From positions 1-51,459 of the IMG/VR virus record IMGVR_UViG_3300025585_000057: a stretch of 51,459 nt of DNA; one strand, written 5' to 3'. This stretch comes from a virus. Its lineage: Duplodnaviria; Caudoviricetes. The translations under genes and the position numbers were made by a program. The notes beneath the pieces are model-generated. The model searched no databases. It was not told the origin of the DNA and worked only from the letters and a program-made list of their open reading frames with translations. Shown in pieces: positions 3 to 30,038 of this stretch; the first letter of the stretch is position 1, and every line of letters begins with the position of its first letter.

Positions 3-3000
3 ATGACCCTCGAACAGAAGCGACCTTTTCATGAACAATGGGCGCAGTCGTTTGAGCGCTACATCTTGGAAGGCAAAGCACCGACGGTCGAGATGCAGCC
101 GGTGTTCGCTCGATTCCGTGCGTGGATGATCAGCGTATACAAATCGATCAAAGAATTCCTTAAACAGAATCCGCTTGCCGGCAAGTTGAACGACGACGTT
201 CGCGCCATATTCGATCGATTGCTCGCAACCGAAGAGAAGATCACGGAAATGGAGCGTGCTCGCAGCATGATGCCGTTGTTTGCATCGGCTGATCAAGCGG
301 GAGTTACACAAGCGAAATTCGAAGCGTATCTCGCCGAAGGGCAAGCGGCTACCGACGAAGCTGTTTCACAACTCGCGGCTCGCAGTTTGCGCGATATGAA
401 ATGGGCCTCCGGTGCTCGTGACAAGGCGTTGCGCCAATTACAACGCGAAGCTAAAGCAAAGCGCAAAGCGTTGACCGAAGAGGTTGCCGCTGAGGTGGCG
501 CAGGAGCCGATCACACAGGCACGGAACTTCCTGCTGCGCGGAATTATCACCGGTGATGACGGAGTTAAGACGAAAGCCTCTACGACCTTCAAATTGGATC
601 GTGGCGCGATTAATGAACTTTACCCAGGCATAGACCTCACCCGGATCGAGAAAATGGTTTCTGACGCGGGTATGACGCCCGATGCTGCCGCCCAGATGTT
701 CGGCTTCAGCAGCGGACAGGAACTGATCGATGCGCTGCTCAATGAAGAGTCTACAACAGATAAAATTCAAGGGTTGGTCGATCAGCGGATGCTCGAACGC
801 TACGGCGATCTGGTTGACGACAGAGCGATCGAGGCAGCAGCGGACAAGGCGATACACAACCGGGTACGGGCGAAGTTCTTGGCTACCGGTCTGGCTATCC
901 TGAAGAAGCAACCCGGCGGTGCGGCAGCGCTCAATAAAGCTGCGAAGCTTGCAGCGGAAGGGGCTCTGTCGCGTAAGAAGCTCCGTGATATTACTCCAGG
1001 ACAATATGCCGCAGCAGAACGTCGGGCAAATGCTGAGGCGCTCAAACGGGTATCGGGTGACGAGAAAGCAGCTATAGAAGCCCAACGGGCGGCCTTGCTC
1101 AACAACCACCTAGCACGGCTATCCCGTGATATCCGCGAGGAAGTTGACGCGGCTCTGAAGTACCTCAAGAAGTTCGATAAGGTAGAACTGCGCAAGAAGC
1201 TGGGCCCAGACTACATGGAACAGATCGATGACCTGTTGCAGAACTTCGACTTCCGTAAGGGCACTCCGTTGTCTAAGATCGACAAGCAGCAAGCGTTGCG
1301 CGACTGGATCGAGGATCAACAGGCAGAAGGTTTCGAGCCAGCCATAGACGATTCCTTGTTAGATTCTCTGAAACTCAAGAGCTACAAGGAAATGACTCTC
1401 GACGAGTTTCGCGGCATCGTTGACGCCGTGAAGCAGATCGAGCACCTGGGGCGTTTAAAGGACAGGCTGCTCACGGCCAAAGAGGCCAAAGAGTTCAACG
1501 CCTCAGTTGAGAAGGCGACAGAATCCATCAAGGCGAACGCTAACAGAGTGGTGACGGAACACGAGACCCCGACTGACCTCTACGGTAAAACGAAGAAGTG
1601 GTTCCGTCAGATGTTCGCCGCGCACCGCAAATTCAACTCCGTTATCCGTGAGATGGACGGGTTCAAGAATGCCGGTGTTATGTGGGAGATGCTGGCTCGC
1701 CCGATGAATGAAGCCGGGGATGCCGAAGTTGAGATGCGCCAGAAGGCAGCCGAGGAACTCGGTCGGCTGTTCGGTATGCTAGAGAATACGGACACGGTTC
1801 CGGGCAACTTGTACTCTAAGAAACGCCTAGTGCCGGGGACAGATATCTCAATGACTCAGGAACAGCGGATCATGTTCGGCATGAACTGGGGCAACGAAGG
1901 AAACCGGCAACGGTTGATGGACGGCGGGCTGGCGGGGCGTAAGGCGCTCTCTATGCAGGAGGCCCAAGCTATTCTCGATACGCTCACCAAGCCCGAATGG
2001 GATTTCATACAATCCGTGTTGGATTTCGTGGGTTCCTATAAAGAGCAGATCGCAGCACTCGAGAGACAGGTAACAGGCATCGAACCGAAGTGGATCGACG
2101 CCATGCCGATAGAGACGAAGTTCGGAACCTACCGTGGAGGGTACTTCCCAGCAAAGTACGACGCGGACCTGTCTACCAGATCCGAGGTATTGGAAGCGGT
2201 CAACGACATGCGCATGGGCATGAAGGGGGCGTTTCAGTCTGCGGCTACAAAGAACGGATATACGAAAGAACGTTCTAAACAGGTTATAGGTCGCCCGATT
2301 CTCCTGAGCTTCAACACGATAGCTCAGCATGTGAGCGAGGTGACCCACCGCCTAGCGTGGCAGCCGTGGTTGATAGACGCGAATCGTCTATTACGTGCGC
2401 TGGATGAACCAATCCGAGAGCACTACGGAACTGAACTCCTGCGAGAACTACGCAATACTGTTTTAGATATCGCCACGGGTGACGTGGGCGCTAAGAACGC
2501 TATGGAAGCCGGTATCAATCACCTACGGACGGGATCGACTATCGTTGGCATGGGCTGGAGGGTGACTACCGCGTTATTGCAACCGAGTGGTCTGGCTCAA
2601 AGCTGGTCGCGTATCGGTAGCAGATCGATAGCTGCAGGGCTGGCCCAGTATCTTAAAAACCCGATAGTAGCCGGTAAGTTCGTAGACGAGAAATCGAGCC
2701 TGATGCGTAACCGCGGAATCACGATGCAGCGTGAGGTGAATGAGGTGTTGAATACTCTGAGATCCGGCAGTAAGGTGTCCGCCGTTACGGGGTCGTACTT
2801 CACCCTGATCGGCAAGATGCAACGCACCGTGGACATCCCAACATGGATCGGGGCTTACGAAAAGGATCTCGCGGAGCAGGGTTACGAGGCTGCAGAGAAC
2901 GAGGAAGAACGTGCTAAGATGGAAGCACGAGCCGTAGCAGTAGCCGATCAAACGGTAATCGATACGCAATCCGGGGGGCAGATAAAAGACCTTGCGAGCA

Positions 3001-3584
3001 TCCAGCGGGGGTCGCCTGTACAGAAATTGTTTACTAACTTCTACTCGTACTTCAGCGCCACATATAACTTGAATGTCGAAACGGTACGCAAAACAAACTT
3101 CCGTGATCCTGCCAGTGTTGGCCTGATGGCGGTAGACCTGTTGCTATTGAATACGGTTCCGGTGCTATTCGCCCTGGCTCTCAAACAAATGACGAAAGGT
3201 GAATGTGAATGGGATGATACGGAATGCCTATTAGAGAAAGCGGGGCAGGAGCAGATAAACTTCCTCATGGGGCAGATGATTATACTGAGAGAGGTCGCCG
3301 TGGCGGGACAGGCGTTGATAGGCGCGGATACCTACGGGTATCAAGGCCCGGCGGGGTTGAGGTTCTTCAGCGATCTGTATAAGTTAGGTACACAGGTAGA
3401 ACAAGGCGACGCGGATCTTGCGGCTTTCAAAGCTGCGAACTCGGTAGCGGGGGCGCTCTTTCATTACCCAGCCGGGCAGATTAATTCAACGCTCGATGGT
3501 ATACTCGCCATCGAAGACGGTAGAGTGGAAGGGGTAAGCATATTGCCAGCACTAATCGCGGGAGCACCGAAAGATGCTAGATAA
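3..3584 (+). CDS. C-terminal part of giant internal virion (ejection) / large polyvalent protein; 5' truncated, continues from 44180..51459
   Basis: Frame is open from the window edge. It begins with HEQWAQSFERYILEGKAP...VFARFRAWMISVY, the second half of a zincin-like domain whose HExxH half (IHEGGHFYLE) is at the other window end. The rest is long and helical with hydrophobic C-terminal helices, as in podovirus ejection proteins. Confidence 0.8.
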   Translation: MTLEQKRPFHEQWAQSFERYILEGKAPTVEMQPVFARFRAWMISVYKSIKEFLKQNPLAGKLNDDVRAIFDRLLATEEKITEMERARSMMPLFASADQAGVTQAKFEAYLAEGQAATDEAVSQLAARSLRDMKWASGARDKALRQLQREAKAKRKALTEEVAAEVAQEPITQARNFLLRGIITGDDGVKTKASTTFKLDRGAINELYPGIDLTRIEKMVSDAGMTPDAAAQMFGFSSGQELIDALLNEESTTDKIQGLVDQRMLERYGDLVDDRAIEAAADKAIHNRVRAKFLATGLAILKKQPGGAAALNKAAKLAAEGALSRKKLRDITPGQYAAAERRANAEALKRVSGDEKAAIEAQRAALLNNHLARLSRDIREEVDAALKYLKKFDKVELRKKLGPDYMEQIDDLLQNFDFRKGTPLSKIDKQQALRDWIEDQQAEGFEPAIDDSLLDSLKLKSYKEMTLDEFRGIVDAVKQIEHLGRLKDRLLTAKEAKEFNASVEKATESIKANANRVVTEHETPTDLYGKTKKWFRQMFAAHRKFNSVIREMDGFKNAGVMWEMLARPMNEAGDAEVEMRQKAAEELGRLFGMLENTDTVPGNLYSKKRLVPGTDISMTQEQRIMFGMNWGNEGNRQRLMDGGLAGRKALSMQEAQAILDTLTKPEWDFIQSVLDFVGSYKEQIAALERQVTGIEPKWIDAMPIETKFGTYRGGYFPAKYDADLSTRSEVLEAVNDMRMGMKGAFQSAATKNGYTKERSKQVIGRPILLSFNTIAQHVSEVTHRLAWQPWLIDANRLLRALDEPIREHYGTELLRELRNTVLDIATGDVGAKNAMEAGINHLRTGSTIVGMGWRVTTALLQPSGLAQSWSRIGSRSIAAGLAQYLKNPIVAGKFVDEKSSLMRNRGITMQREVNEVLNTLRSGSKVSAVTGSYFTLIGKMQRTVDIPTWIGAYEKDLAEQGYEAAENEEERAKMEARAVAVADQTVIDTQSGGQIKDLASIQRGSPVQKLFTNFYSYFSATYNLNVETVRKTNFRDPASVGLMAVDLLLLNTVPVLFALALKQMTKGECEWDDTECLLEKAGQEQINFLMGQMIILREVAVAGQALIGADTYGYQGPAGLRFFSDLYKLGTQVEQGDADLAAFKAANSVAGALFHYPAGQINSTLDGILAIEDGRVEGVSILPALIAGAPKDAR

Positions 3585-6604: not shown

Positions 6605-6861
6605 GTCAGTAACCCCTTCTCTTTCAGAAAATCGTGCAGATCCGCTCTTATCTCGCGCGGGTCCGCAGCCCAGTCATAAACCCCGACAATTTTCTCCGAC
6701 ACCGTTTTGGGGCTCCGGAACAGCCTTTCGTAGTTACTCGTACCGCTCTTCACTGCGCGCAGCACTTCTCGCTCCCAAACGATCAATACCGGTACTTCCA
6801 AGGACATCACCTTATCGATTACCCACTCCACCTGCTCTTTCAAATCTCGTTCCTTAAGCAT
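6598..6861 (-). CDS. Hypothetical protein
   Basis: 87 aa ORF overlapping both neighbours, with GGAGG RBS. Confidence 0.6.
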   Translation of the reverse strand: MLKERDLKEQVEWVIDKVMSLEVPVLIVWEREVLRAVKSGTSNYERLFRSPKTVSEKIVGVYDWAADPREIRADLHDFLKEKGLLTW

Positions 6862-8311
6862 TTCTGCCTCCCTGTTTCTTAATTGATCGCGCTTCCAGGA
6901 TCAGATCCTGCACGCTTTTCTTAGTCTCTACGCGCGCCATTACCAACTCGTCGACGGTATCTCGGGCGATTATGTTGATGATATAAACGTTCCTATTCAA
7001 CCCGGCTTGCAATTGCCGTACCGGGCCTATCCTTTCCATTACCTGCAACCGTTCTTCCAGGTTCCAATTGTGTCCGAAAAACACCAGCACGTACCCGCCG
7101 TACTGCAGGTTGAGCCCATGCCCGGCACTCTTAGGATGTACAAACAACAGCGGGATCTTGCCCTCGTTCCACTCCTGCTCAATCAGGTTCGTATTCTGCG
7201 GCGTGATAGCGCGCCCCTTTGGGAACGCCCTCAATAGCCTCTCACGATCCGATCTGAAATTGTACGCTACCAGAAGATTCGCCCCAGAGAATTCGTTCAC
7301 GATACTCTCTAGTGCCTGGATCTTGGTGTCGTGAACTTCCTTCCAGGCTTTCGCCATTGGGTCGTCATCCTCCCGTTTCAACGGGTCGACGTAACACGCC
7401 CCGTTTGCTACCTGCAGGAGCTTCTGAGTCAGTACCGCAGAGTTGGCTACCGCTATCGGGTGCTGCTCTATCTCTGCGTAAAACTGCTTCTCCAGCTCTT
7501 TGTAGAGATTACGAGCTTTCGGTGGCAGGTCAACGTATCTGTCTACGACGATCGGGTCCTTCAGATCGAACCAATCTTCAGGCCTGAGCGAAATACAGAT
7601 ATCTGACAATAGTTCGTTGATCTCTCCGGCTGTGTGCGCCATAGGTTTCGGCGTACCAAACTCCCCCGGAGGAATCTTAAACCAACGATCAATGAAACCC
7701 GAGAATGTTCTCCCGAGGCGCTCCCCCTTGTCTAGCATCCATATCTGCCCCCACAGGTCTAGCAACCCATTTGGTGACGGAGTACCCGTCAATTGGTGAA
7801 AATACTTGACCTGGGTGTGCGCCACCTTACCCAACGCAGCAGCGCGTACCCCGCCTTGTCGGATACGGAAACTCTTCAGCCGAGTGGACTCATCCGCAAC
7901 CACCCGGATGAAGGGCCACTTGTCGCCGTACTGCGCCACCAACCACGGAAGATTCTCGTAGTTGGTGACGTATACAGAAGACCGAATCTTCAACGCCGAG
8001 AACCGTTCCTTCTCGTTACCTACTATGGGTACGACTCGTAGGTGGCGGAGGTGATCCCATTTAAGCGGCTCGTTTACCCAGGTCGTTTTGGCAACGAGCA
8101 GAGGCGCTATAACGAGCGTGGGGCGGTCCTCCCCCATGCACTGATGGTAATCGATAGACGTGAGCGCAGAAACGGTTTTACCCATACCCATGCCAGCCCA
8201 AACCGCATACCGCGGATTGTCTATCATCCTATCAATTATGATCTCTTGATAGGGCTTCTTTATAAGCTTCTGCCGCACGTTTTCTCTCCTTGATACGTTG
8301 TTTGCTCTCAT
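6854..8311 (-). CDS. SNF2-family (SF2) helicase
   Basis: AGMGMGKT Walker A, VVADES motif II, LTGTP motif III, SAGHGLNLQ and QVMERIG..RQ motifs V/VI. Confidence 0.93.
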   Translation of the reverse strand: MRANNVSRRENVRQKLIKKPYQEIIIDRMIDNPRYAVWAGMGMGKTVSALTSIDYHQCMGEDRPTLVIAPLLVAKTTWVNEPLKWDHLRHLRVVPIVGNEKERFSALKIRSSVYVTNYENLPWLVAQYGDKWPFIRVVADESTRLKSFRIRQGGVRAAALGKVAHTQVKYFHQLTGTPSPNGLLDLWGQIWMLDKGERLGRTFSGFIDRWFKIPPGEFGTPKPMAHTAGEINELLSDICISLRPEDWFDLKDPIVVDRYVDLPPKARNLYKELEKQFYAEIEQHPIAVANSAVLTQKLLQVANGACYVDPLKREDDDPMAKAWKEVHDTKIQALESIVNEFSGANLLVAYNFRSDRERLLRAFPKGRAITPQNTNLIEQEWNEGKIPLLFVHPKSAGHGLNLQYGGYVLVFFGHNWNLEERLQVMERIGPVRQLQAGLNRNVYIINIIARDTVDELVMARVETKKSVQDLILEARSIKKQGGRNA

Positions 8312-8534
8312 TCATTTTCTGTAGATAGTGAAACCTACAATACGGGTACGGCACGAATCGCTTCCCCCCTTCTTTCGCGGGCATACGGGTTTCATTACAA
8401 CCTGGTATAGCGCAAGGGGACTTCTGCGTGTCCGACAGGACAACAGTTTGCTTCGTGTTCAACTTCAAGAGCATGTCGTACATGCTCCCAAGTCGTTCGT
8501 ATAGAGGGGCTAGGCCCCGATTGCTCTCAACCAT
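8232..8534 (-). CDS. Hypothetical protein with Cys/His zinc-binding motif
   Basis: CAIPGC...YCRFH and a basic C-terminus; sits in the operon. Confidence 0.55.
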   Translation of the reverse strand: MVESNRGLAPLYERLGSMYDMLLKLNTKQTVVLSDTQKSPCAIPGCNETRMPAKEGGKRFVPYPYCRFHYLQKMNESKQRIKERKRAAEAYKEALSRDHN

Positions 8535-8827
8535 TCATCTACCTCCCCTAACGTAAACAGTACCGCCACTCGGACGTCTTTCCCCATGAGTTCGTTGAGC
8601 TCGGCCACCTGCCCGAGAGAAAGCCTCCCGCCTCTGGGGCGTTTCAGCTCTACGAAACCCTGCCACTTCCCGGGTATTACCACAAACCGGTCCGGGCATC
8701 CCCGCCTTCCGATCCATTTTACTTTCCGTATGAAGCCTTTCCTCTCTTCCACTGCCCGCTTCAGGTACTTCTCGATTACCGCTTCCTTCGCGTTGTCCGT
8801 AACTTTCAAATCCTTCGTACCAGTCAT
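8510..8827 (-). CDS. VRR-NUC domain nuclease
   Basis: EAVIEKYL...GCPDRF...FVELKRP.GGRLS..Q PD-(D/E)xK signature. The ATG at 8827 has an AAAGGA RBS; the ORF track start at 8923 is probably too long. Confidence 0.9.
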   Translation of the reverse strand: MTGTKDLKVTDNAKEAVIEKYLKRAVEERKGFIRKVKWIGRRGCPDRFVVIPGKWQGFVELKRPRGGRLSLGQVAELNELMGKDVRVAVLFTLGEVDEWLRAIGA

Positions 8828-8936
8828 AGCACATATCCTTTTGTTGTTTGTTTTCCTTGACACCCTCGTATGGGTTGTCCCAAATGCGGCGGCCTTCCTT
8901 GGCCGCCTGTCGCCCTTCGGCAAAAGCCCCTCTCAT
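8535..8936 (-). CDS. Rmf/CrpP-like small domain protein with long C-terminal extension overlapping VRR-NUC
   Basis: First 46 aa fit AFxEGxxAxxxGxxxxxNPY...WxxG. Start overlaps the upstream stop (ATGA), and its stop abuts the ATG at 8534. Confidence 0.55.
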   Translation of the reverse strand: MRGAFAEGRQAAKEGRRIWDNPYEGVKENKQQKDMCYDWYEGFESYGQREGSGNREVPEAGSGREERLHTESKMDRKAGMPGPVCGNTREVAGFRRAETPQRREAFSRAGGRAQRTHGERRPSGGTVYVRGGR

Positions 8937-9460
8937 TGTACCGTACCACTATGCGGTGAAAAGGACCCTCCGTTACGCAGATCTTCCTCCGTTAGGTTCA
9001 CCTCGATAGGATCCCCGAGCCACCGGTGAAAGTACTGCGGCAACTCAGGTGGCCTAGGACCCGGCTCCCACATAGCAGTACCAATCCCGTACCCGCCATT
9101 CATCTCAAAGATATAAAACTGCGTTACGAAGTGAAGTGGTAGGGTCCGCAGGTCCTCTACCTCTTCTTCAACCTGATCCTTATCTGCCTCCTGTTGTGCG
9201 ATGTACTGGCGTATCACTTCGAAGTTATCTTCGAGTACTTTATGAACTTCTTGTCTCCTCTTCAGATGTTGTTGCACCGCCTCTTTCAGCGTCGTAACGG
9301 CGTCCGAGTAGTTGAGAGTGAAAGACCGATGTGCCGTGCATGTAACGACGATCCCAGACTCCAGGTGCACAATTTCTACCCCCTCCCATTTTCCGAAATC
9401 ATTGAGAATGTTCGCGGAGTACGCATCTTTTTCTTTGGTATGGAATAAACTGATTAACAT
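8933..9460 (-). CDS. Protein with peptide chain release factor (RF-1 domain)-like segment lacking GGQ
   Basis: GVEIVHLESGIVVTCTAHRSFTLNYSDAVTTL parallels the AVRITHLPTGIVVxCQxERSQxxNxxxAxxxL segment of class I release factors. Confidence 0.55.
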   Translation of the reverse strand: MLISLFHTKEKDAYSANILNDFGKWEGVEIVHLESGIVVTCTAHRSFTLNYSDAVTTLKEAVQQHLKRRQEVHKVLEDNFEVIRQYIAQQEADKDQVEEEVEDLRTLPLHFVTQFYIFEMNGGYGIGTAMWEPGPRPPELPQYFHRWLGDPIEVNLTEEDLRNGGSFSPHSGTVQ

Positions 9461-9477
9461 TTTTCCTTCTCCTAAAA

Positions 9478-11544
9478 TTATTTACGATACCGAAGCATCG
9501 TTTCCCCTGCTGCTGCTAGCGGTAGGCCAACAGACCAGTTACGAGGTTCTGACATTATTTCAGAAAGCCCCTCGGCTGTCAACTCCCGTCTGGACTCACA
9601 AACTAATTCATCGTGAACCCTTATCAATACCTGGTATCCAGCCTCTTCTGCGTGCGGCATTGCGTGGAACAGAACATCCCGAGCACCGGCCTGACAGATA
9701 TTCTCAAACAACTTCCCCCCGTGGGTATCGATACGGGTCCACTTCCGTGTGAACTGATTGACGCCCATATAACTGATCTTCCCTTCCGTGTCGATCCTCG
9801 GCGACGGGTAGCACAGATACCGGCCCGATTGCAGGCGTATGCGCAGCCAAGCGCCCTTGCGGTCTACGATCAGCCCTCGCACGTTCACGGTCGTCTGACG
9901 TCCTATCGCAACGCGGCAGGCGTTCTCAAGTTCCGCCCATAGGCTAGTGATAGCCGGGTGTGCTTCGCGCCATAGGCGTTTCAATACGTCACACGTCAGA
10001 AAGGCTTTGTCCGACAGGCCGTACCGATTCATTTTTTTCTTCTCAGCAAACGCCAAGAATTTCTTGGCCTCGTTCACTGTAGCCACCGGTAGGGTGTCGT
10101 AGATGTTCGACGCCAGATCCTCGACGCTGAACCCATAGGTAGCGGCCCCTGTTACGAACGCACCGACACCGCCTTGGTACTGCAACATCAATTCCTGAAC
10201 CTTACCGATCTGCCGTTGGTCCTTGGTGACGGTATCGGGTTCGACCCGGAACGATCTCGCGTAGGCTAATATGTACAGATCAGGTCCTAGCCCCGCGTCG
10301 AAATCGCGGAACGCCTGGAGCTTCCACTCCTCCCCGGCGGTCCATGCGGCGTAACGGCCTTCGATGTTCGAAAGATCCGATACATTCAATACCTTCCCGG
10401 CAGTTGGTACCAGCACGCCTCGCACGCACGATACCGCGAGCAGCATTGGGTCTTCGAAGAAATAATCCCGAACCGGCAAGCGCTCTTTGATACACTCCGC
10501 CCCGAAGTCTATTTCAGAGGCGGACAACAGCCCGCGACTCGGTAGGTTCTGCGGTTGGAACGTTCTACCAGCGTCACGCCCGGTTCGTTGTGCACCGCAA
10601 AACTGTAGTGTACCCCGGCAGCGCCCGTCGTCGTTAACTGCACGTGCCAATGCCTTATACTTACTTGTTGATGTAGAGGTCGCAGCGAGTCTGATACGCA
10701 CCAGTTCACGCACCTCGGCGGGCATGTTCTCGTCGTCAAGGGCCCGCTTCAGGGTATCTTTCTGTAGATCCTTGAAATGCCATCCATGCGCCTCAAATAT
10801 GTACGCCAACAACAGATCGCGTTTCGTGGCGCTTGATACCTCGTTGTTTGTTTGTTCTTGAATTTGTTGTTTCAGCAGGCGCTGCTCATCGTTAACCATT
10901 TGTATCGCGCCCTCGATCAGCTCCTGATCGGTATTGAAACCGTGATCGTTTATGCGCTGATCCAGGAACCAGAAATTCAGTTCGTCCGTATTGTTCGGGT
11001 AGTTCCATTTCGGCATTTTATTATGAAGTGCTCGCGTCGCCTCCACGTCACGGATCGCATACTCGCAGAATCGTTTCCATTCCTCCGGATGCGTCTCATG
11101 CGTGGCACGGCGAATCTTCACGTTTACCGGGCGAGGTTTGCAAAATAGATGGATAAGCTTCGATCCGTCTTTCATCTTCGCTTCTTCGGGGTTCAGGTTG
11201 AAGATCGTCCCGAGGGTGCCCATACTACCTGGCAGGCCGTGTGCAAGAGCCTGCACCATCGTGTCACGCCATCGCTTTATGGGAGCCGTTAACCCAAGAG
11301 CGTACCGGAGTACGGTACGGTCGAACATTGTATTATGCCCCCAGATCTCAACATCCGCGCTATAGATGAAGGCGTCGAGGAATTCTTGGTGGGTTTCGTC
11401 GCCTTTTGTATAATCAACCAGTTTCACTGGGCCATCATCAATCGCGTATGTGAGTATCATCACCTCGCAATCCTCCGCGTATCGGTAAGTTCCGTGTGCT
11501 ATTGGTGTCTCTGAATATGTTTCTGTGTCAAACCATAGTTTCAT
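9478..11544 (-). CDS. DNA polymerase, family A (phage type) with 3'-5' exonuclease
   Basis: FDTETYS ExoI, HNTMFDR ExoII, YAIRDV ExoIII, RTGRDAG, DLSNIEGR motif A, RQIGKVQELMLQY motif B, VHDELV motif C. Confidence 0.96.
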   Translation of the reverse strand: MKLWFDTETYSETPIAHGTYRYAEDCEVMILTYAIDDGPVKLVDYTKGDETHQEFLDAFIYSADVEIWGHNTMFDRTVLRYALGLTAPIKRWRDTMVQALAHGLPGSMGTLGTIFNLNPEEAKMKDGSKLIHLFCKPRPVNVKIRRATHETHPEEWKRFCEYAIRDVEATRALHNKMPKWNYPNNTDELNFWFLDQRINDHGFNTDQELIEGAIQMVNDEQRLLKQQIQEQTNNEVSSATKRDLLLAYIFEAHGWHFKDLQKDTLKRALDDENMPAEVRELVRIRLAATSTSTSKYKALARAVNDDGRCRGTLQFCGAQRTGRDAGRTFQPQNLPSRGLLSASEIDFGAECIKERLPVRDYFFEDPMLLAVSCVRGVLVPTAGKVLNVSDLSNIEGRYAAWTAGEEWKLQAFRDFDAGLGPDLYILAYARSFRVEPDTVTKDQRQIGKVQELMLQYQGGVGAFVTGAATYGFSVEDLASNIYDTLPVATVNEAKKFLAFAEKKKMNRYGLSDKAFLTCDVLKRLWREAHPAITSLWAELENACRVAIGRQTTVNVRGLIVDRKGAWLRIRLQSGRYLCYPSPRIDTEGKISYMGVNQFTRKWTRIDTHGGKLFENICQAGARDVLFHAMPHAEEAGYQVLIRVHDELVCESRRELTAEGLSEIMSEPRNWSVGLPLAAAGETMLRYRK

Positions 11545-11557
11545 AAATGCCTCCGGT

Positions 11558-11590
11558 AAAAAAAAGGGGGAGGAGCCTAAGCCCCCCCCC
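11558..11590 (-). terminator. Intrinsic terminator between the SSB and polymerase genes
   Basis: Minus strand reads G9-C-TTAG-GCTCCTCCCCC followed by T8. Confidence 0.7.
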
Positions 11591-11596
11591 GTACCT

Positions 11597-11713
11597 CTCT
11601 ACCTTTCCCGTGTTTAGTCAGTAGATCGCCGGGTTTGCGTAAGCTGCAGCGTGATTTGTGGGGCCACTGCAGGTGAACGAGGTAGAGTATCCGCGTTCCT
11701 GGTACTCGGGAAC
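11597..11713 (-). ncRNA. Candidate structured RNA in the SSB-polymerase intergenic region
   Basis: Nested stems CTCTACCT/AGGTAGAG, CTGCAG/CTGCAG and CCCG/CGGG, plus GTTCC/GGAAC, in a 200-nt gap. Confidence 0.35.
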
Positions 11714-11744
11714 CCTGGAGATGCGACCGCCCCTGTCATATTAG

Positions 11745-12329
11745 TTATGCATCCTGGAAGAAGTCGTCTTCCTCATCGGTTCCTTCAGAGAGATCGTCGA
11801 AATCACCATCGGCTACTCTAGCCGGTGCGGTAGTAAACGCCTCGCCATCTTGTGCGAACTGGACCGCGATTAATGTCGCGCGAATTCCCTGGTATGTTTT
11901 AGTCTGTATCCACAGATCCACGGTTGCGTTAACGTAGCAGCCTGGGTATGGGCGTCCATCTTTGGACGTCAGACGTACCTCTGGGTTGCGGTCGACGACC
12001 ATAGGAGCCCCGGAAGCTTCTCCACGGTGGCATCCCAGAACCATGTGTCCCTCGAACGATTCGTCTGAGCTGTCGCGCATATCACCGTCGGTATAGCAGC
12101 ATTTCTGATTCGAGGCCGACCAGGCCTTGATAGCCGCCTCGGCTTTCTTGCCCATCTTCTCTACTGCGAGATCGCTGATAGCCTTGGATAGTTCCTTATC
12201 TAGTGCGCTACCTTTCGGGATTAAGAACGTGGCGCTGTATCGTGGGTTGGAGTTTTCTTCGCCGTTGAATTTAACGGCTTCGAATAAATCTTCGTATTTC
12301 AATCTTACGTTCTTCAGTTTAATTTTCAT
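11745..12329 (-). CDS. DUF2815 family ssDNA-binding protein (gp2.5-like)
   Basis: LKNVRL.Y..LF, YSATFLIPK, DGD, YPGCYVNA, AVQFAQDGEAF and an acidic C-tail; lies between DUF2800 and the polymerase. Confidence 0.9.
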   Translation of the reverse strand: MKIKLKNVRLKYEDLFEAVKFNGEENSNPRYSATFLIPKGSALDKELSKAISDLAVEKMGKKAEAAIKAWSASNQKCCYTDGDMRDSSDESFEGHMVLGCHRGEASGAPMVVDRNPEVRLTSKDGRPYPGCYVNATVDLWIQTKTYQGIRATLIAVQFAQDGEAFTTAPARVADGDFDDLSEGTDEEDDFFQDA

Positions 12330-25176: not shown

Positions 25177-26520
25177 ATGTACATACTCGCGAGTACGTCA
25201 GACGTCATTCGCGTTACCACCGATGCAGCCGCAGCGGTGGATTGTCACGCCACCTGGGTGGACAACAACGCGGGTACTATCACACCGGGGCGGACCAATA
25301 CCGCCTCGATTACTACAGCCACGACCACACCGGTCGTGAGTTCGCCAGCAGCCTCGACTTACCGAGGAATCAAGAAGTTAGCCATATTCAACACACACGG
25401 GAGCGTACGAACGTCCATCGACGTTGGGCATTACGACGGAACCACGGAAGAGACGATCTACTCGACGATTCTGGGACCTGGGGAATTCGTAATATACACC
25501 GAAGGGGTTGGCTGGCAACGTTTCAACGCCAATGGTGAATTGATGAAGGCCGGTGTCGCTCAGGCTGCGTGCGACAAACAGGCATTCGCGGCGGACGGAA
25601 CCTGGACTAAACCCACTGGGTTCACCCCGAAATTTGTTATCGTCGATCTATGGGGCGCGGGCGGGGGAGGTGGAGCCGGAGCTTCACTTGCTACTGCAGT
25701 CGCGGCTCACGGAGGCGGCGGAGGTGGGGGCGGGGCGTTCGTGCGCCAAGTATTTATGGCCTCGGATCTCACCAGTACGGTAGCTGTCACGATCGGGGTA
25801 GCGGGGACTGCGGGGACACCAGGAGCAGCAGGTGCGCTTGGCGGGGATGGCGGCGTCGGAGGTACAACCACTTTCGGAAGCTATTTATCTGCATACGGCG
25901 GCGGCGGCGGTAGAGGCGGTGCGATAACCGCAGCGATATCAGGAGGCGGCGGAGGCGGCGGCGGTGAAGGCGCTGGCGGTACAGGAACGACAGTCGGGGG
26001 GACCGGAGGCGTGCCTACTGCAACAACAGTAGCGATAGGGTTTCAGGGAGTTACAGGCAGCGCAGCGGCGAACCCGAATGGGGCCGACTGGGGCGGGGCC
26101 CCTGGCGGGAGCGCCTCTAGCGCGGCAACCCCGGTGGCGTTTCCTGGGGGTACTTCCATGCGCGGCGGCGGCGGCGGAGGTCAAGGGGGTTGCCATACCA
26201 GTACCCCAGCGGTAACAACCGGGTCGGATGGCGGGGCTTCTGGAACGTATTCAGCAACCGGCGGTGGCGGGGGCGCAGTTGGTACGAGTGGCCCGTCACC
26301 GACGGTGGGCACTGCGGGGTCTGATGGATCTTCTCTACGCGGCGGACACGGAGGAGGAGGTGGTGGCTCTACGGTAACAGCCGCGACTGCTGGTAAGGCT
26401 GGCGGAAACGGGGGGCGTGGAGGTGGAGGCGGAGGTGGCGGAGGTATTGGGCAAAACCCAGGATTGGGGGGCGCTGGCGGGGCTGGCGGAGCGGGATACG
26501 CGATAATTTACAGTTACTAA
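25177..26520 (+). CDS. Glycine-rich fibre/adhesin-like protein, paralogue 1
   Basis: ~130 aa beta N-domain, then F...GTWTKP...V.VDLWG.GGGGG glycine-rich domain ending GG.GYAIIYSY. Confidence 0.75.
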   Translation: MYILASTSDVIRVTTDAAAAVDCHATWVDNNAGTITPGRTNTASITTATTTPVVSSPAASTYRGIKKLAIFNTHGSVRTSIDVGHYDGTTEETIYSTILGPGEFVIYTEGVGWQRFNANGELMKAGVAQAACDKQAFAADGTWTKPTGFTPKFVIVDLWGAGGGGGAGASLATAVAAHGGGGGGGGAFVRQVFMASDLTSTVAVTIGVAGTAGTPGAAGALGGDGGVGGTTTFGSYLSAYGGGGGRGGAITAAISGGGGGGGGEGAGGTGTTVGGTGGVPTATTVAIGFQGVTGSAAANPNGADWGGAPGGSASSAATPVAFPGGTSMRGGGGGGQGGCHTSTPAVTTGSDGGASGTYSATGGGGGAVGTSGPSPTVGTAGSDGSSLRGGHGGGGGGSTVTAATAGKAGGNGGRGGGGGGGGGIGQNPGLGGAGGAGGAGYAIIYSY

Positions 26521-26521
26521 A

Positions 26522-27874
26522 ATGATAATACTTGCAAGCACTTCCGATGTAATACGAGTCATAACCGGTACAACCGGATCGGCTATCGATTGCCACGCCT
26601 CGTGGGTGGACAACTCATCGAGCACGATTACGCCGGGTAGGACCAACACGGCCTCGATAACGACCAACACGACAACCACGGTATGCGGATCGCCTGGGGC
26701 GTCGGCGTATCGGGTACTGAAGAACCTCACGATCTGTAACACTCATGCCTCGGTAGCCACCTCGATTGAGGTTGAACACTTCGATGGAACAACGGCGGAG
26801 ACTCTATACAAAACAACATTGCTGCCAGGGGAGTTCGTCGTTTATGACGACGACGCTGGCTGGCAGAGGTTCAACAGCGAAGGCTCGGAAGCTGGTGTAG
26901 GTCGCGCAGGAATAAATGTGGATGTCCAGGAATTCAGCGCGAATGGAACCTGGGTAAAGCCCACGACCTTTAAACCGAAGCAGGTAATAGTCGACATGTG
27001 GGGCGGTGGCGGTGGTGGGGGTAGTGGCGGTTTTGCTGCCTCCGCCGCCACGGTGCACAAAGGCGGGGGAGGTGGAGGGGGAGGTTGCTTTCGTCGGTAC
27101 ATAATAGATCCTTCTGTACTACCCGATACCGTGGCGGTTGTGGTAGGACTCGGGGGACAAGGAGGTATTGAGACCACGACCACCGCGCCACAAGCGGGAA
27201 CCGCCGGAGCGGTTGGGGGCACTACCTCTTTCAATGGGAACTATCTAGCCTACGGCGGCGGCGGCGGCGCTGGAGGAGTAAACACCGCCGCCAACTCGGG
27301 CGGCGGCGGCGGTGCGGGGTGGAACGGCGCGGGGGGCACTGGGGGGGCCACGGGGGGCTCTGGGGGGGTTCCTGCTGTTACAACTAACGCGACAAACGGA
27401 AACGGAGTAGCGTCAAGTGTAGCTACGGTGCCAATACCGGCCTATGAAGGTGGCGCGGGCGGCGGGGGTTCCTCAAACACACCCGCGGTATTCGCCGGTG
27501 GTACGTCTATGAGAGGCGGCGGCGGCGGAGGGGCCGGGGGGTGTACCGATGCAGTACCCGCGGTTGTTGCACCATCGGCGGGCGGCGCTTCAGGAACGTA
27601 CAGTCTATCCGGGGGAGGGGGAGGAGCAGCAGGAACCAGCGGCGCTTCTCCGACAGATGGCACAGCAGGATCGGCAGGAACTTCACTACGCGGCGGCCAT
27701 GGTGGGGGAGGTGGCGGGTCTACGGTTACTGCGGCTACTAATGCGGGTAAGGGGGGCAACGGAGGTGCGCGAGGAGGCGGCGGCGGCGGCGGGGGGACGA
27801 CCACTGCAGTTACAACCGACGGCGGAGCGGGGGGTAAAGGGGGAGATGGTTATGTTATTGTTTATACATACTAA
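26522..27874 (+). CDS. Glycine-rich fibre/adhesin-like protein, paralogue 2
   Basis: Same architecture as paralogue 1. Confidence 0.75.
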   Translation: MIILASTSDVIRVITGTTGSAIDCHASWVDNSSSTITPGRTNTASITTNTTTTVCGSPGASAYRVLKNLTICNTHASVATSIEVEHFDGTTAETLYKTTLLPGEFVVYDDDAGWQRFNSEGSEAGVGRAGINVDVQEFSANGTWVKPTTFKPKQVIVDMWGGGGGGGSGGFAASAATVHKGGGGGGGGCFRRYIIDPSVLPDTVAVVVGLGGQGGIETTTTAPQAGTAGAVGGTTSFNGNYLAYGGGGGAGGVNTAANSGGGGGAGWNGAGGTGGATGGSGGVPAVTTNATNGNGVASSVATVPIPAYEGGAGGGGSSNTPAVFAGGTSMRGGGGGGAGGCTDAVPAVVAPSAGGASGTYSLSGGGGGAAGTSGASPTDGTAGSAGTSLRGGHGGGGGGSTVTAATNAGKGGNGGARGGGGGGGGTTTAVTTDGGAGGKGGDGYVIVYTY

Positions 27875-27877
27875 AAT

Positions 27878-29239
27878 ATGATAATACTTGCAAGCACATC
27901 AGACGTAATACGAGTCATAACCGGTACAACCGGATCGGCTATCGATTGTCATGCTTCGTGGATAGACAACGCCTCGGGCGTAATGACTCCCGGACGAACG
28001 AATACCGCCTCGATAACAACCAACACGACTACGACTATTGTAGCCGCGCCAGCCGCATCGACCTATAGATCGATACGGCACATAACAATATTCAACACAC
28101 ACGCATCCGTAGCAACCTCGGTGGAGGTCGAACACTACGACGGCACAACGGCGGAATCCTTATACAAAATTACGTTAGCAGCCGGGGAATCGGTGCAGTT
28201 CATCGATGACCGCGGTTGGTTCGAGTACAACGCCAGTGGAGTACAGCAGCCTATAGACGACATTACTGCGATAGGTTCTGCGGTTGATAGACAAGAATTC
28301 TCGGGTACAGGAACCTGGACCAAACCAACGCACATGAAAGCAACGATGGTGGTTGTTGAGCTATGGGGTGGAGGAGGTGGAGGCGGCGGAGGAGGAGTGA
28401 ACAACGCGGTGGCTACGAAAGGCGGCGGCGGTGGGGGAGGTGGCGCTTATATGCAGCAGATCTTCGCAGCTAGTGATCTAACAGATACAGTTACCGTGAC
28501 GATAGGCAATGGCGGAACGGCTGGCACGAGCGTAGCAGGTAGCGGGGGAGCCGCAGCCGGGGGTAATGGGGGCACGGGCGGTACGACTACTTTCGGGAGT
28601 TATCTATCAGCATTCGGCGGCGGGGGTGGAGTGGGCGGGGCTAGTTCTGGCGTGGCGAGTGGAGGAGGGGGAGGCGCGGGTCTAGGTGCCGCTGGAAGCG
28701 TTGGCACAACTGTGGGCGGCGCGGCTGGATGGCCAACAGGGGTAGGGTTATTAGGCTCAGGGGAGCCGGGGCAAGCCACGGTGGTCTCGAATACTACAGA
28801 ATTCGGGGGGTGTGGTGGCGGGGGCTCCAGTGCCATCCCTGGAACGGGGGGTGCGGGGGGTGCCTCTCGGTACGGCGGAGCTGGCGGCGGGTCGGGCGGG
28901 GCGCATACCGCTACGCCTGCCGCCGTCGCGGCAGGACCCGGCGGGGCTTCTGGTTTCAGTGCAGGTAATGCTGGGGGAACAGCGGGGTTTATAGGTGGTA
29001 AAGGCGGCGGGGCGGGCGGACCTGGGGCCAGTTTGCTCACTACCGGAGGCGGGGGGTCCGGCGGCGGCGGTGGTGGTGCTAATGCCCTGGCGGTTACAGT
29101 GGATGCAGGAGCCGGAGGTGCTGGAGGTTTAGGCGGCGGGGGAGGTGGCGGAGGTGGGGCCAGCCTAGCCACGACAGGAACCAGCAGCGGAGCGGGTGGT
29201 CTGGGTGGGGGTGGGTATGCGATAATACATACCTACTAA
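27878..29239 (+). CDS. Glycine-rich fibre/adhesin-like protein, paralogue 3
   Basis: Same architecture; first 29 aa identical to paralogue 2. Confidence 0.75.
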   Translation: MIILASTSDVIRVITGTTGSAIDCHASWIDNASGVMTPGRTNTASITTNTTTTIVAAPAASTYRSIRHITIFNTHASVATSVEVEHYDGTTAESLYKITLAAGESVQFIDDRGWFEYNASGVQQPIDDITAIGSAVDRQEFSGTGTWTKPTHMKATMVVVELWGGGGGGGGGGVNNAVATKGGGGGGGGAYMQQIFAASDLTDTVTVTIGNGGTAGTSVAGSGGAAAGGNGGTGGTTTFGSYLSAFGGGGGVGGASSGVASGGGGGAGLGAAGSVGTTVGGAAGWPTGVGLLGSGEPGQATVVSNTTEFGGCGGGGSSAIPGTGGAGGASRYGGAGGGSGGAHTATPAAVAAGPGGASGFSAGNAGGTAGFIGGKGGGAGGPGASLLTTGGGGSGGGGGGANALAVTVDAGAGGAGGLGGGGGGGGGASLATTGTSSGAGGLGGGGYAIIHTY

Positions 29240-30037: not shown

Positions 30038-30038
30038 A

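What the first reader, a model, noticed from the sequence alone, without database searches (positions are those of the whole stretch)
8790..9460. Adjacent GGQ-less release-factor-like and Rmf-like genes: a possible ribosome-targeting pair
Seen: 8933..9460 contains the VxIxHxxSGIVVxCxxxRSxxxNxxxAxxxL segment but no GGQ upstream. The next gene, coupled by an ATGA overlap, starts with an AFxEG..A...G.....NPY...W..G pattern. Established: GGQ is the catalytic motif of class I release factors and ArfB, and RMF drives ribosome hibernation. Inference: two mimics of translation factors inserted after the DNA polymerase gene may block termination, rescue or hibernation, or act as decoys against translation-targeting defences. 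Rmf-like folds in phages may also have unrelated roles.
Basis: partly seen in the sequence, partly recalled or inferred. Interest (0 to 1): 0.7.

Follow-up and report, generated by a model that had tools for sequence, protein, structure and literature searches.

The report
Dead release-factor domain beside Rmf-like gene
An uncultivated phage carries, right after its DNA polymerase gene, a small cassette whose first protein is a release-factor catalytic domain without its catalytic GGQ motif and whose last protein faintly resembles the ribosome-silencing factor RMF; the genes are real and stay together in related phages, but what they do is untested.

Summary
ORF 8933-9460 (minus strand, 175 aa) carries the quoted segment, has no GGQ, and overlaps the next ORF by ATGA.

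Residues 28-76 match Pfam RF-1 (E 5e-7, 30.1 bits, below the 35-bit cut-off). A 7-member family profile hits only release factors in the PDB (45 of 45 sequences, best 6e-6). The AlphaFold N-domain (pLDDT 73-84) retrieves release factors with Foldseek.

The Rmf likeness is weak. The window protein scores 17.7 bits against a cut-off of 27.9, only one helix plus the NPY loop aligns, and the net charge is -1 against +7 for E. coli RMF. It fits the Rmf/CrpP fold class at best and is not RMF.

The C-terminal 70 aa (here called X) is a separate 63-aa gene in four relatives, so the cassette is RF-like, X, then Rmf-like.

All 5 metagenome loci that hold the RF-like gene hold the Rmf-like gene downstream. 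The 16 more distant polymerase relatives hold none of the three.

All three genes are under purifying selection (dN/dS 0.03-0.49).

My best guess, at about 0.33, is a non-catalytic module that binds the ribosome. I rate it a new variant of a known kind, with moderate interest. Earlier notes of this scan had recorded phage release-factor mini-proteins and Rmf-fold proteins separately on other DNA.

The parts
9478..11544 (-). Family A DNA polymerase gene (688 aa), immediately upstream of the cassette
   Evidence: Pfam DNA_pol_A and the 3'-5' exonuclease domain. There are 16 relatives in IMG/VR.
9461..9477 (-). 17-nt spacer between the polymerase TAA and the RF-like ATG, with a purine-rich Shine-Dalgarno-like stretch
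   Evidence: Read directly from the sequence.
9275..9460 (-). RF-N: release-factor domain-3-like module (residues 1-62), no GGQ. Relatives encode it as a stand-alone 71-74 aa protein.
   Evidence: Pfam RF-1 E 5.1e-7, 30.1 bits, residues 28-76. phrog_20323 E 3.8e-6. Family profile against the PDB: RF2 at 6e-6. AlphaFold strands 13-19, 25-32, 37-41 and a helix from residue 47, pLDDT 73-84. Foldseek returns release factors.
9146..9274 (-). Acidic helical linker (residues 63-105) joining RF-N to X. Present only in the window and in L018.
   Evidence: The AlphaFold helix runs from 47 to 92. L019-L022 have no such linker; RF-N and X are separate ORFs there.
8933..9145 (-). X: small conserved beta-rich domain of unknown family (residues 106-175, plus stop). 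It is a separate 63-aa gene in L019-L022.
   Evidence: Alignment A6 has 16 invariant columns. tblastn identity 41-48%. dN/dS 0.03-0.36. No Pfam, NCBIfam, PHROG, PDB or Atlas match.
8933..8936 (-). ATGA stop/start overlap between the RF-like gene and the Rmf-like gene
   Evidence: Read directly from the sequence.
8793..8936 (-). Rmf/CrpP-fold-like conserved domain (residues 1-48 of the 133-codon ORF)
   Evidence: Pfam RMF 17.7 bits, E 0.0039, residues 4-25. NCBIfam CrpP_rel 0.0045, Rmf_CrpP_fam 0.0054, Rmf_like_phage 0.08. 63-aa homologues P0009-P0011. 29 invariant columns. dN/dS 0.03-0.10.
8535..8792 (-). Non-conserved tail of the Rmf-like ORF. From 8827 down it overlaps the VRR-NUC gene in another frame.
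   Evidence: Relatives stop after 63 codons. The window has a 9-nt insertion and no stop until 8535.
8510..8827 (-). VRR-NUC nuclease gene. Its ATG lies inside the conserved C-terminal codons of the Rmf-like domain.
   Evidence: phrog_93 endonuclease E 1.7e-19. Pfam VRR_NUC E 0.0046. DNA alignment.
8232..8534 (-). Conserved 100-aa basic Cys/His-containing ORF downstream of VRR-NUC (context)
   Evidence: Relatives in L019, L021 and L022 at 30-42% identity. No family hit.
6854..8311 (-). SNF2-type helicase gene, the end of the syntenic block (context)
   Evidence: Pfam SNF2-rel_dom E 2.3e-14. 75-76% identical in L019, L021 and L022.

Best explanation
What is shown: this is a lineage-specific, translationally coupled accessory cassette in the replication operon of an uncultivated tailed phage. 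It consists of RF-N, X and an Rmf/CrpP-fold protein.

RF-N descends from the peptidyl-tRNA-hydrolase domain (domain 3) of bacterial class I release factors. It keeps the strand-strand-strand-helix core and the motif after the catalytic loop: H-L-P-T/S, then an invariant R-S at the start of the helix, then N...A...L. The GGQ loop region is replaced by a family-specific conserved segment, Y-x-A-x-V-L-N-D-H-G-L-W-D-G, which is predicted to form a beta hairpin.

What is inferred: RF-N cannot release peptides by the known mechanism and acts as a binding module. The single most likely mechanism is docking on the large-subunit A-site side of host ribosomes as a non-catalytic plug or competitor of release or rescue factors. 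X, which is fused to RF-N in this phage and separate in its relatives, would act as its partner or anchor. The Rmf-fold protein would act on the same target. This is a viral counterpart of the catalytically dead RF-like proteins that bacteria encode next to hibernation factors. The confidence given applies to this inferred ribosome-directed mechanism, not to the anatomy.
For: Homology to release-factor domain 3:
- Pfam RF-1, E 5.1e-7.
- 7 of 7 members hit RF-1.
- The family profile matched 45 PDB sequences at E<=10, all of the release-factor family (RF1, RF2, mtRF1, C12orf65, PrfH), best 6e-6.
- NCBIfam prfB, E 4.2e-5.

Fold:
- The AlphaFold N-domain has pLDDT 73-84.
- Of 45 Foldseek PDB rows listed, 42 are release-factor family proteins, and so are all 40 rows up to rank 45. 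Best E is 0.009 at probability 1.0. One match covers 58 columns at 1.6 A on a 63-residue RF2 GGQ-domain fragment.

GGQ is absent in all 7 aligned members and in all 5 locus copies.

Retained RF positions (H32, L33, R45, S46, N50, A54, L58) are invariant in the family.

Linkage and coupling:
- The order PolA, RF-N, X, Rmf-like, VRR-NUC holds in 5 of 5 metagenome loci.
- Genes overlap by 4-80 nt.
- The fusion of RF-N and X in the window and L018, against separate genes in L019-L022, argues that these two act together.

Purifying selection acts on all three genes (dN/dS 0.03-0.49).

Precedent: Burroughs and Aravind 2019 (PMC6514570; passages found, section 8 read). They describe catalytically inactive RF-like (baeRF-1) families in persistent operons with the hibernation factor HPF/YfiA, and propose that these insert into the A site as non-catalytic negative regulators. 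They also describe an inactive bacterial-type RF domain recruited as a mitoribosomal protein.
Against: - No known ribosome anchor is present. There is no codon-recognition domain and no ArfB-type basic tail. ArfB needs that tail to bind ribosomes (PMC3950681, abstract and sections 14 and 16 read).
- The proteins are acidic to neutral: -13 for the whole 175 aa, -3 for RF-N, -5 for X and -1 for the Rmf-like domain, against +7 for E. coli RMF.
- The Rmf likeness is below all curated cut-offs. It is almost nil against E. coli RMF itself: hhalign probability 2.2% over 22 columns.
- The retained RF positions may simply be needed for folding.
- All linked loci come from one lineage in which the whole operon is syntenic.
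- Another GGQ-less phage RF mini-protein (Acinetobacter phage Morttis) has neither X nor an Rmf-like gene within 2.5 kb on either side.
- The cassette sits among replication genes.
Confidence: 0.33

Rival explanations
1. The folds are the same but the target is different. The RF-derived domain and the Rmf/CrpP-fold protein are small binding scaffolds that phages reuse for host takeover or counter-defence against non-ribosomal partners. The two genes may act independently and be neighbours only because they share one variable slot.
For: - RF-N and X evolve fast (41-48% identity) while PolA and SNF2 stay at 75-78%, as host-interaction genes often do.
- The proteins are acidic or neutral.
- The slot between PolA and VRR-NUC holds unrelated small ORFs in more distant relatives.
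- There were 0 profile hits in 2761 ORFs of L002-L017.
- Rmf/CrpP-fold proteins are catalogued by NCBIfam as a phage/MGE family.
- Earlier notes of this scan found such proteins acidic and without RMF's basic residues. Those notes are leads, not evidence.
Against: - No similarity to any PADLOC defence model for RF-N relatives, X or the Rmf-like protein.
- No alternative partner is indicated by any result.
- The Rmf-like gene is as conserved as the core replication genes (71-79% identity, dN/dS 0.03-0.10), which is unlike an arms-race gene.
- The RF-specific positions after the loop are invariant.
Confidence: 0.3
2. The cassette is an accessory to replication or recombination. The three small proteins would assist the polymerase, VRR-NUC nuclease or SNF2 helicase encoded around them, with the RF and Rmf likenesses being only fold reuse.
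For: - The cassette lies inside the PolA, VRR-NUC, 100-aa ORF, SNF2 operon.
- It is coupled to the VRR-NUC gene, whose ATG lies inside conserved Rmf-like codons.
- The Rmf-like gene keeps pace with PolA and SNF2 in conservation.
Against: - Phages whose polymerase is 29-53% identical have PolA and, in most cases, VRR-NUC and SNF2, yet none of the three genes. That is 0 of 16 loci, 2 of which end inside PolA. The replication machinery therefore does not need them.
- No DNA-binding or nuclease family hit.
Confidence: 0.15
3. RF-N is still a peptidyl-tRNA hydrolase that uses other residues of its conserved N-D-H-G-L-W-D-G segment in place of GGQ.
For: The replacement segment is strongly conserved. 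N20, D21, G23, W25 and G27 are invariant, which shows that it is functional in some way.
Against: - There is no Gln and no Gly-Gly at the equivalent place in any member.
- The segment is predicted as a rigid hairpin rather than the flexible 15-residue loop described for GGQ domains (PMC3950681 section 14).
- The catalytic glutamine defines all active families (PMC6514570, passages).
Confidence: 0.03

Closest known systems
Domain 3 (GGQ / peptidyl-tRNA hydrolase domain, Pfam RF-1 PF00472) of bacterial class I release factors RF1/RF2, ArfB, PrfH and C12orf65
   Same: The strand-strand-strand-helix core is shared. The conserved positions after the catalytic loop (H-L-P-T/S-G-like turn, R-S at the helix start, N...A...L) are also shared. 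Profile and fold searches retrieve only this family.
   Different: No GGQ is present. The N-terminal 27 residues do not align. The score is below the Pfam cut-off (30.1 against 35 bits). There are no codon-recognition domains and no ArfB tail. The domain is fused to, or followed by, an unknown acidic domain.
GGQ-less 'RF-1 domain peptide chain release factor' mini-proteins of T4-like Acinetobacter phages (phrog_20323; for example the 78-aa gene CPT_Morttis_151 of phage Morttis, MW388004.1)
   Same: They have the same size class and are stand-alone, with no GGQ. The second half is shared: hmmscan E 3.8e-6 and hhalign probability 96%, E 3.5e-9 over 43 columns.
   Different: The first halves are unrelated. 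The Acinetobacter gene lies in the tRNA island, with no X and no Rmf-like gene within 2.5 kb on either side. The hosts and phage types differ.
Stand-alone GGQ-containing RF-1 mini-proteins of phages (annotated 'peptide chain release factor'). BFVD examples are Pseudomonas phage phiPsa347, Acinetobacter phage Henu6 and an uncultured Caudovirales phage. PHROG 3122 is named only in earlier notes of this scan.
   Same: They are isolated release-factor domain-3 folds in phages. Four of 50 BFVD rows carry release-factor names, E 0.02-0.22.
   Different: According to earlier scan notes, which I did not check here, those proteins keep GGQ. This family does not.
Catalytically inactive baeRF-1 proteins in operons with the hibernation factor HPF/YfiA (Burroughs and Aravind 2019, PMC6514570)
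   Same: The logic is the same: an RF peptidyl-hydrolase domain without the catalytic Gln lies next to a gene of a ribosome-silencing factor type, with a conserved Arg at the start of the helix after the strands.
   Different: The fold is unrelated (archaeo-eukaryotic RF, RNase H-like, rather than the bacterial RF domain). The partner is HPF/YfiA, not an Rmf-like protein. Those operons are cellular, not viral. Both cases rest on prediction only. That paper's main text does not contain the word 'phage' (0 occurrences). Its supplementary lists could not be seen.
Ribosome modulation factor RMF (Pfam PF04957) and the Rmf/CrpP family (NCBIfam NF041886, NF041856, NF041887)
   Same: They share a short helix, loop, helix protein with the G..A...G-R.....-P-Y motif. 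The first helix and the loop align. The predicted helices are 2-14 and 30-43.
   Different: All scores are below cut-off. The hhalign probability against E. coli RMF is 2.2%. Net charge is -1 against +7. The family has its own conserved C-terminal motif, C-Y-x-W-Y-E-G-F-E-S.

Membership tests
Class I release factor / RF-1 domain (PF00472) | Score at or above Pfam's gathering cut-off (35 bits) | tested here: not met
   30.1 bits, E 5.1e-7, residues 28-76 on profile positions 34-84 of 116. For the N-domain alone, 29.4 bits.
Class I release factor / RF-1 domain (PF00472) | GGQ catalytic motif in the loop between the first two core strands | tested here: not met
   No GGQ in the window protein, in the 7 aligned members or in the 5 locus copies. 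The conserved segment Y-x-A-x-V-L-N-D-H-G-L-W-D-G stands there instead.
Class I release factor / RF-1 domain (PF00472) | Domain-3 fold: antiparallel strands followed by a long helix | tested here: met
   AlphaFold strands 13-19, 25-32 and 37-41 and a helix from residue 47, pLDDT 73-84 for residues 11-70. 42 of 45 listed Foldseek PDB rows are release-factor family proteins, best E 0.009 at probability 1.0. The E-values are modest and the model rests on 8 sequences.
Class I release factor / RF-1 domain (PF00472) | Conserved positions after the loop (H-[LI]-P-[TS]-G turn, R-S-Q at the helix start, N, A, L) | tested here: met
   H32, L33, R45, S46, N50, A54 and L58 are invariant in 7 of 7 members. 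They align to the same positions of RF2 and C12orf65. Q is not kept, and G is replaced by R in the relatives.
Class I release factor / RF-1 domain (PF00472) | A ribosome-anchoring part (codon-recognition domains 2/4, or an ArfB-type basic C-terminal tail) | tested here: not met
   Pfam and NCBIfam hits cover only the domain-3 segment. The rest is an acidic helix plus the acidic X domain (net -13 overall).
Class I release factor / RF-1 domain (PF00472) | Peptidyl-tRNA hydrolysis on the ribosome | not testable with these tools
   This needs a reconstituted release assay.
Ribosome modulation factor RMF (PF04957) | Score at or above Pfam's gathering cut-off (27.9 bits) | tested here: not met
   The window protein scores 17.7 bits, E 0.0039, residues 4-25 on profile positions 12-33 of 53. 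6 of 6 members hit at E<=10, best 4.9e-5.
Ribosome modulation factor RMF (PF04957) | Alignable over the whole length to a bona fide RMF | tested here: not met
   hhalign of the family against E. coli K-12 RMF: probability 2.2%, E 0.022, 22 columns only. The profile search of the PDB found nothing.
Ribosome modulation factor RMF (PF04957) | Strongly basic protein. That RMF's basic residues are what bind 16S rRNA is recalled knowledge. | tested here: not met
   The 48-aa domain has 8 K+R against 9 D+E. E. coli RMF has 12 against 5.
Ribosome modulation factor RMF (PF04957) | Two-helix fold with the P-Y loop | tested here: inconclusive
   AlphaFold gives helices 2-14 and 30-43, but mean pLDDT is 54. 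Foldseek against the PDB gave 0 matches.
Rmf/CrpP family (NCBIfam NF041886, NF041856, NF041887) | Score at or above the NCBIfam cut-offs (28, 35 and 40 bits) | tested here: not met
   16.3, 16.9 and 12.4 bits (E 0.0054, 0.0045 and 0.08) for the window protein. The scores are weaker for P0009.
Phage GGQ-less RF-1 mini-proteins (phrog_20323) | Significant match to the PHROG profile and to a named member | tested here: met
   hmmscan E 3.8e-6 for the window protein and 1.6e-4 for P0005. hhalign against the phage Morttis protein gives probability 96%, E 3.5e-9. Only positions 26-67 of the 73-position profile align, so this is a sister group rather than a member.

The most novel reading that the evidence does not exclude
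The cassette is a phage-encoded system for silencing or reprogramming ribosomes without catalysis. The dead release-factor domain, helped by X, would plug the large-subunit A site or compete with host release and rescue factors, while the Rmf-fold protein would act on the small subunit. That would make it a viral analogue of the predicted bacterial pairs of inactive RF and hibernation factor, and the first evidence that Rmf/CrpP-fold phage proteins work with a ribosomal partner.
Probability: 0.2. Interest if true: 0.8.

Novelty: new variant of a known kind. Interest (0 to 1): 0.5.

Why it matters
Phage-encoded release-factor domains and Rmf/CrpP-fold proteins are both catalogued but have no tested function. 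Here a catalytically dead release-factor domain with its own strongly conserved replacement motif is genetically tied to an unknown domain by fusion and fission. It also lies in one coupled unit with an Rmf-fold gene.

That yields a small, well-defined set of three proteins (72, 63 and 63 aa, or 175 plus 63 aa) that can be tested directly on ribosomes. A positive result would reveal a new way for phages to manipulate translation, and would give a first functional handle on two widespread orphan phage families. A negative result would show that these folds are reused for non-ribosomal targets. That would warn against the database names 'peptide chain release factor' and 'peptidyl-tRNA hydrolase' that such genes now carry (seen).

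Tried and rejected
- **Complex prediction** of the 175-aa protein with the Rmf-like protein: score 0.00, no verdict, so it says nothing for or against binding.
- **Foldseek of the Rmf-like model** against the PDB: 0 matches, on a low-confidence model.
- **Profile of the Rmf-like family against PDB sequences:** 0 hits.
- **X domain:**
  - The PDB profile search gave only a chance-level hit to a glucanase, E 0.88.
  - The Atlas gave no usable hit.
  - Pfam, NCBIfam and PHROG gave nothing for X.
- **GenBank phage collection:** megablast of 8000-12000 and tblastn of the RF-like and Rmf-like proteins found no match. Only at E up to 10 did the relative P0007 touch the Acinetobacter phage genes.
- **IMG/VR scans** with the RF-like protein and with the RF-N, Rmf-like and X profiles found no relatives.
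- **GTDB genome scan** with the RF-N profile found none, so no prophage copy was seen.
- **PADLOC** gave no meaningful hit. Three weak hits (Orf5, Cas4, Cas4a; E 0.0014-0.04) fall mainly on the helical region of the 175-aa protein.
- **Alignment A5** placed the X sequences under the N-domain. I discarded it and did not use it.
- **A frameshift fusion** of the Rmf-like protein with VRR-NUC was considered. I rejected it because relatives end the Rmf-like ORF after 63 codons, and both frames are conserved only in the short overlap.
- **A decoy for the release-factor methyltransferase** was considered. I rate it unlikely because the substrate GGQ loop is missing. This is inference only.
- **Earlier-findings look-up by place** returned nothing.
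Full report
**Setting.** The window is a complete-looking virus record of 51,459 bp from IMG/VR (CheckV completeness 100%). PHROG hits to tail proteins, terminase, exonuclease and primase-helicase show a tailed phage. There is no close relative in the GenBank phage collection.

The finding lies in a minus-strand operon. The gene order is family A DNA polymerase (9478-11544), a 175-aa ORF (8933-9460), a 133-codon ORF (8535-8936), a VRR-NUC nuclease (8510-8827), a 100-aa ORF (8232-8534) and an SNF2 helicase (6854-8311).

**Observation.**
- Residues 28-58 of the 175-aa protein fit the quoted pattern exactly, and the 27 residues before it hold no GGQ.
- The start codon is 17 nt after the polymerase stop, behind a purine-rich Shine-Dalgarno-like stretch.
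- The stop TGA overlaps the next ATG as ATGA.
- The next ORF begins with the A-F-x-E-G ... N-P-Y ... W-x-x-G pattern.

**The first protein is a true relative of release-factor domain 3.**
- Pfam RF-1 matches residues 28-76 at E 5.1e-7. The score of 30.1 bits is below the 35-bit cut-off.
- PHROG 20323, 'RF-1 domain peptide chain release factor', matches at 3.8e-6.
- NCBIfam prfB matches at 4.2e-5.
- A full scan of 1.84 billion representative proteins found only three relatives at E<=0.001. A profile search of the 5.8-billion set found six stand-alone proteins of 71-74 aa. These correspond to the first 62 or so residues.
- All 7 aligned members hit RF-1.
- The profile of these 7 matched 45 PDB sequences at E<=10. 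All 45 belong to the release-factor family (RF1, RF2, mitochondrial RF1, C12orf65, PrfH), and the best is RF2 at 6e-6.
- An AlphaFold model built on 8 sequences is poor overall (mean pLDDT 53) but acceptable for residues 11-70 (73-84). It gives strands 13-19, 25-32 and 37-41 and a helix from residue 47.
- Foldseek against the PDB listed 45 rows, of which 42 are release-factor family proteins. All 40 rows up to rank 45 are. Best E is 0.009 at probability 1.0. One match covers 58 columns at 1.6 A on a 63-residue fragment of the RF2 GGQ domain.
- In the viral structure library, four of 50 rows carry release-factor names.

**The catalytic part is gone and something else is conserved in its place.**
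- No member has GGQ.
- The published GGQ-domain topology is strand, 15-residue flexible GGQ loop, strand, strand, helix (PMC3950681, section 14).
- In this family the corresponding stretch reads Y-x-A-x-V-L-N-D-H-G-L-W-D-G. D12, Y14, N20, D21, G23, W25 and G27 are invariant. The stretch is modelled as a hairpin.
- After it, the positions typical of all release-factor domains are invariant: H32, L33, R45, S46, N50, A54 and L58.
- The protein therefore cannot work as a peptidyl-tRNA hydrolase in the known way. It has nevertheless been kept under selection (dN/dS 0.08-0.49 for this part).

**A third component.**
- Five metagenome contigs encode relatives.
- In four of them (L019-L022) the release-factor-like protein is only 72-74 aa. 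An overlapping 63-aa gene follows it, and that gene is homologous to residues 106-175 of the window protein.
- In the window and in its close relative L018, the two are joined by an acidic helix of about 45 residues.
- I call the second part X. It has 16 invariant columns and dN/dS of 0.03-0.36.
- X has no detectable relative in Pfam, NCBIfam, PHROGs, PDB sequences or the ESM Atlas.
- Fusion in one lineage and separate genes in another is the classical sign that two proteins work together. That step is an inference.

**The Rmf-like protein.**
- Its relatives are 63 aa long and share 29 invariant columns with the window protein.
- All 6 aligned members hit Pfam RMF at E<=10. The window protein reaches only 17.7 bits against a cut-off of 27.9, and only residues 4-25 align.
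- NCBIfam gives weak hits to CrpP-related (E 0.0045), Rmf/CrpP (0.0054) and phage Rmf-like (0.08) models, all far below cut-off.
- Against E. coli RMF itself the family profile gives 2.2% probability over 22 columns.
- The conserved 48-residue domain has 8 basic and 9 acidic residues. E. coli RMF has 12 and 5.
- The AlphaFold model shows two helices at low confidence and finds nothing in the PDB.
- This is therefore not RMF. At most it is a divergent member of the broad Rmf/CrpP fold class, with its own conserved C-terminal motif.
- In the window its ORF runs on for 133 codons, because a 9-nt insertion and other changes removed the stop that relatives have after codon 63.
- The ATG of the VRR-NUC gene lies inside the conserved last codons of the Rmf-like domain, and that stretch of DNA is almost invariant.

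**Linkage and distribution.**
- All 5 metagenome loci found with the RF-N profile hold the RF-like and Rmf-like genes in the order PolA, RF-N, X, Rmf-like. The four that reach further continue with VRR-NUC, and three continue with the 100-aa ORF and SNF2.
- Neighbouring genes overlap by 8, 23 and 80 nt in L021.
- Two of the 63-aa Rmf-like proteins and two of the 72-74-aa RF-like proteins report the same longest-contig lengths, 33,698 and 12,221 bp. This suggests further co-occurrence but does not prove it.
- The 16 IMG/VR loci with polymerases 29-53% identical have none of the three genes. phmmer found none, and profile searches of their 2761 ORFs gave 0 hits at E<=10. Two of these loci end inside the polymerase gene.
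- Most of those loci carry VRR-NUC and SNF2, with other small ORFs in the slot.
- Scans of IMG/VR and of one genome per prokaryotic species found no further copies.
- The cassette is therefore a lineage-specific insertion in a variable slot.
- Between the window and L019-L022, identities are as follows:

| Gene | Identity to the window |
|---|---|
| PolA | 75-78% |
| SNF2 | 75-76% |
| Rmf-like | 71-79% |
| VRR-NUC | 58-64% |
| RF-N | 41-44% |
| X | 41-48% |

**How it may work.** The anatomy above is shown. The function is inferred.

The most specific hypothesis is a non-catalytic, ribosome-directed module. It rests on four points:
- RF-N descends from a domain whose only known role is to enter the large-subunit A site.
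- The invariant positions shared with all release factors are retained.
- RF-N is coupled to a gene of the Rmf fold class.
- A published parallel exists. Inactive archaeo-eukaryotic-type RF domains in bacteria stand in persistent operons with the hibernation factor HPF/YfiA, and were proposed to insert into the A site as non-catalytic negative regulators. A bacterial-type RF domain without the glutamine has also become a mitoribosomal protein (PMC6514570; passages, section 8).

Against it:
- The family lacks every known ribosome anchor. ArfB binding depends on its basic tail (PMC3950681, abstract).
- All three parts are acidic or neutral.
- The Rmf likeness is marginal.
- Conserved neighbourhood within one syntenic lineage is weak evidence for a joint function.
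- The other GGQ-less phage RF mini-protein I examined, in Acinetobacter phage Morttis, sits in the tRNA island without X or an Rmf-like gene.

I put the ribosome-directed reading at about one third. A non-ribosomal binding role, possibly with independent functions for the two genes, is nearly as likely. A replication accessory role stands at about 0.15. Residual catalytic activity is very unlikely.

**Novelty.** Phage RF-1 mini-proteins, including GGQ-less ones, and phage Rmf/CrpP-fold proteins are already catalogued. They appear in PHROG and NCBIfam and under GenBank product names such as 'peptide chain release factor'. Earlier notes of this scan recorded both kinds on other DNA.

Three things are new here:
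- a separate GGQ-less subfamily with its own conserved replacement segment;
- its fusion/fission partner X;
- the coupled Rmf-fold neighbour.

My literature searches did not turn up this combination in a phage. They were 'release factor / GGQ / bacteriophage / lacks the GGQ', 'CrpP / ribosome modulation factor' and the release-factor evolution search. The supplementary lists of PMC6514570 could not be read. I class the finding as a new variant of a known kind, of moderate interest, with a clear and inexpensive experimental test.

Noticed in passing
window 44180-51457 (+) and 3-3584 (+): Two giant ORFs sit at the record ends: 2426 aa, open at the 3' end, and 1193 aa. The second matches positions 1019-2216 of the 2231-position phrog_9880. 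Joining the ends naively leaves them in different frames; the first would stop 11 codons past the junction, overlapping the start of the second. The record was probably cut within or next to a very large virion-protein locus.
   Followed up: partly
window 30021-33164 (+): A terminase large-subunit ORF of 1047 aa has separate terminase matches at residues 63-441 and 667-1021. It also has primase, helicase and endonuclease-like PHROG hits at residues 59-348. It is unusually long and may carry an inserted element or an extra domain.
   Followed up: no
window 25177-29239 (+): Three consecutive paralogous genes of 447, 450 and 453 aa each match phrog_863, 'tail fiber assembly'. They lie in the most GC-rich part of the genome (0.58-0.62).
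   Followed up: no
window 8535-8792 (-): The Rmf-like ORF has lost the stop codon that relatives have after codon 63. It stays open for 85 more codons, and from 8827 down it overlaps the VRR-NUC gene in another frame. Whether this tail is translated is unknown.
   Followed up: partly
L018 1117-1170: In the closest relative (polymerase 98% identical) the fused RF-like gene ends 18 codons earlier at a stop. The DNA after the stop still translates like the window's tail, at 86% over 70 aa by tblastn. The last residues of X therefore seem dispensable, or that copy is truncated.
   Followed up: partly
L019-L022, RF-N genes: The stand-alone RF-N genes are mosaic. L022 resembles L019 and L020 in its first half and L021 in its second half. 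RF-N differs far more between L020 and L021 (pN 0.33) than the adjacent X gene does (pN 0.013). This suggests recombination within the cassette.
   Followed up: no
window 8232-8534 (-): A basic 100-aa ORF with a Cys/His pattern lies between VRR-NUC and SNF2. It is conserved in relatives at 30-42% identity and has no family assignment.
   Followed up: no
L023 (Acinetobacter phage Morttis MW388004.1, 76204-76440): The 78-aa gene annotated 'peptide chain release factor' has no GGQ. Related records name it 'putative peptidyl-tRNA hydrolase' or 'prfB'. These product names probably overstate the function.
   Followed up: partly
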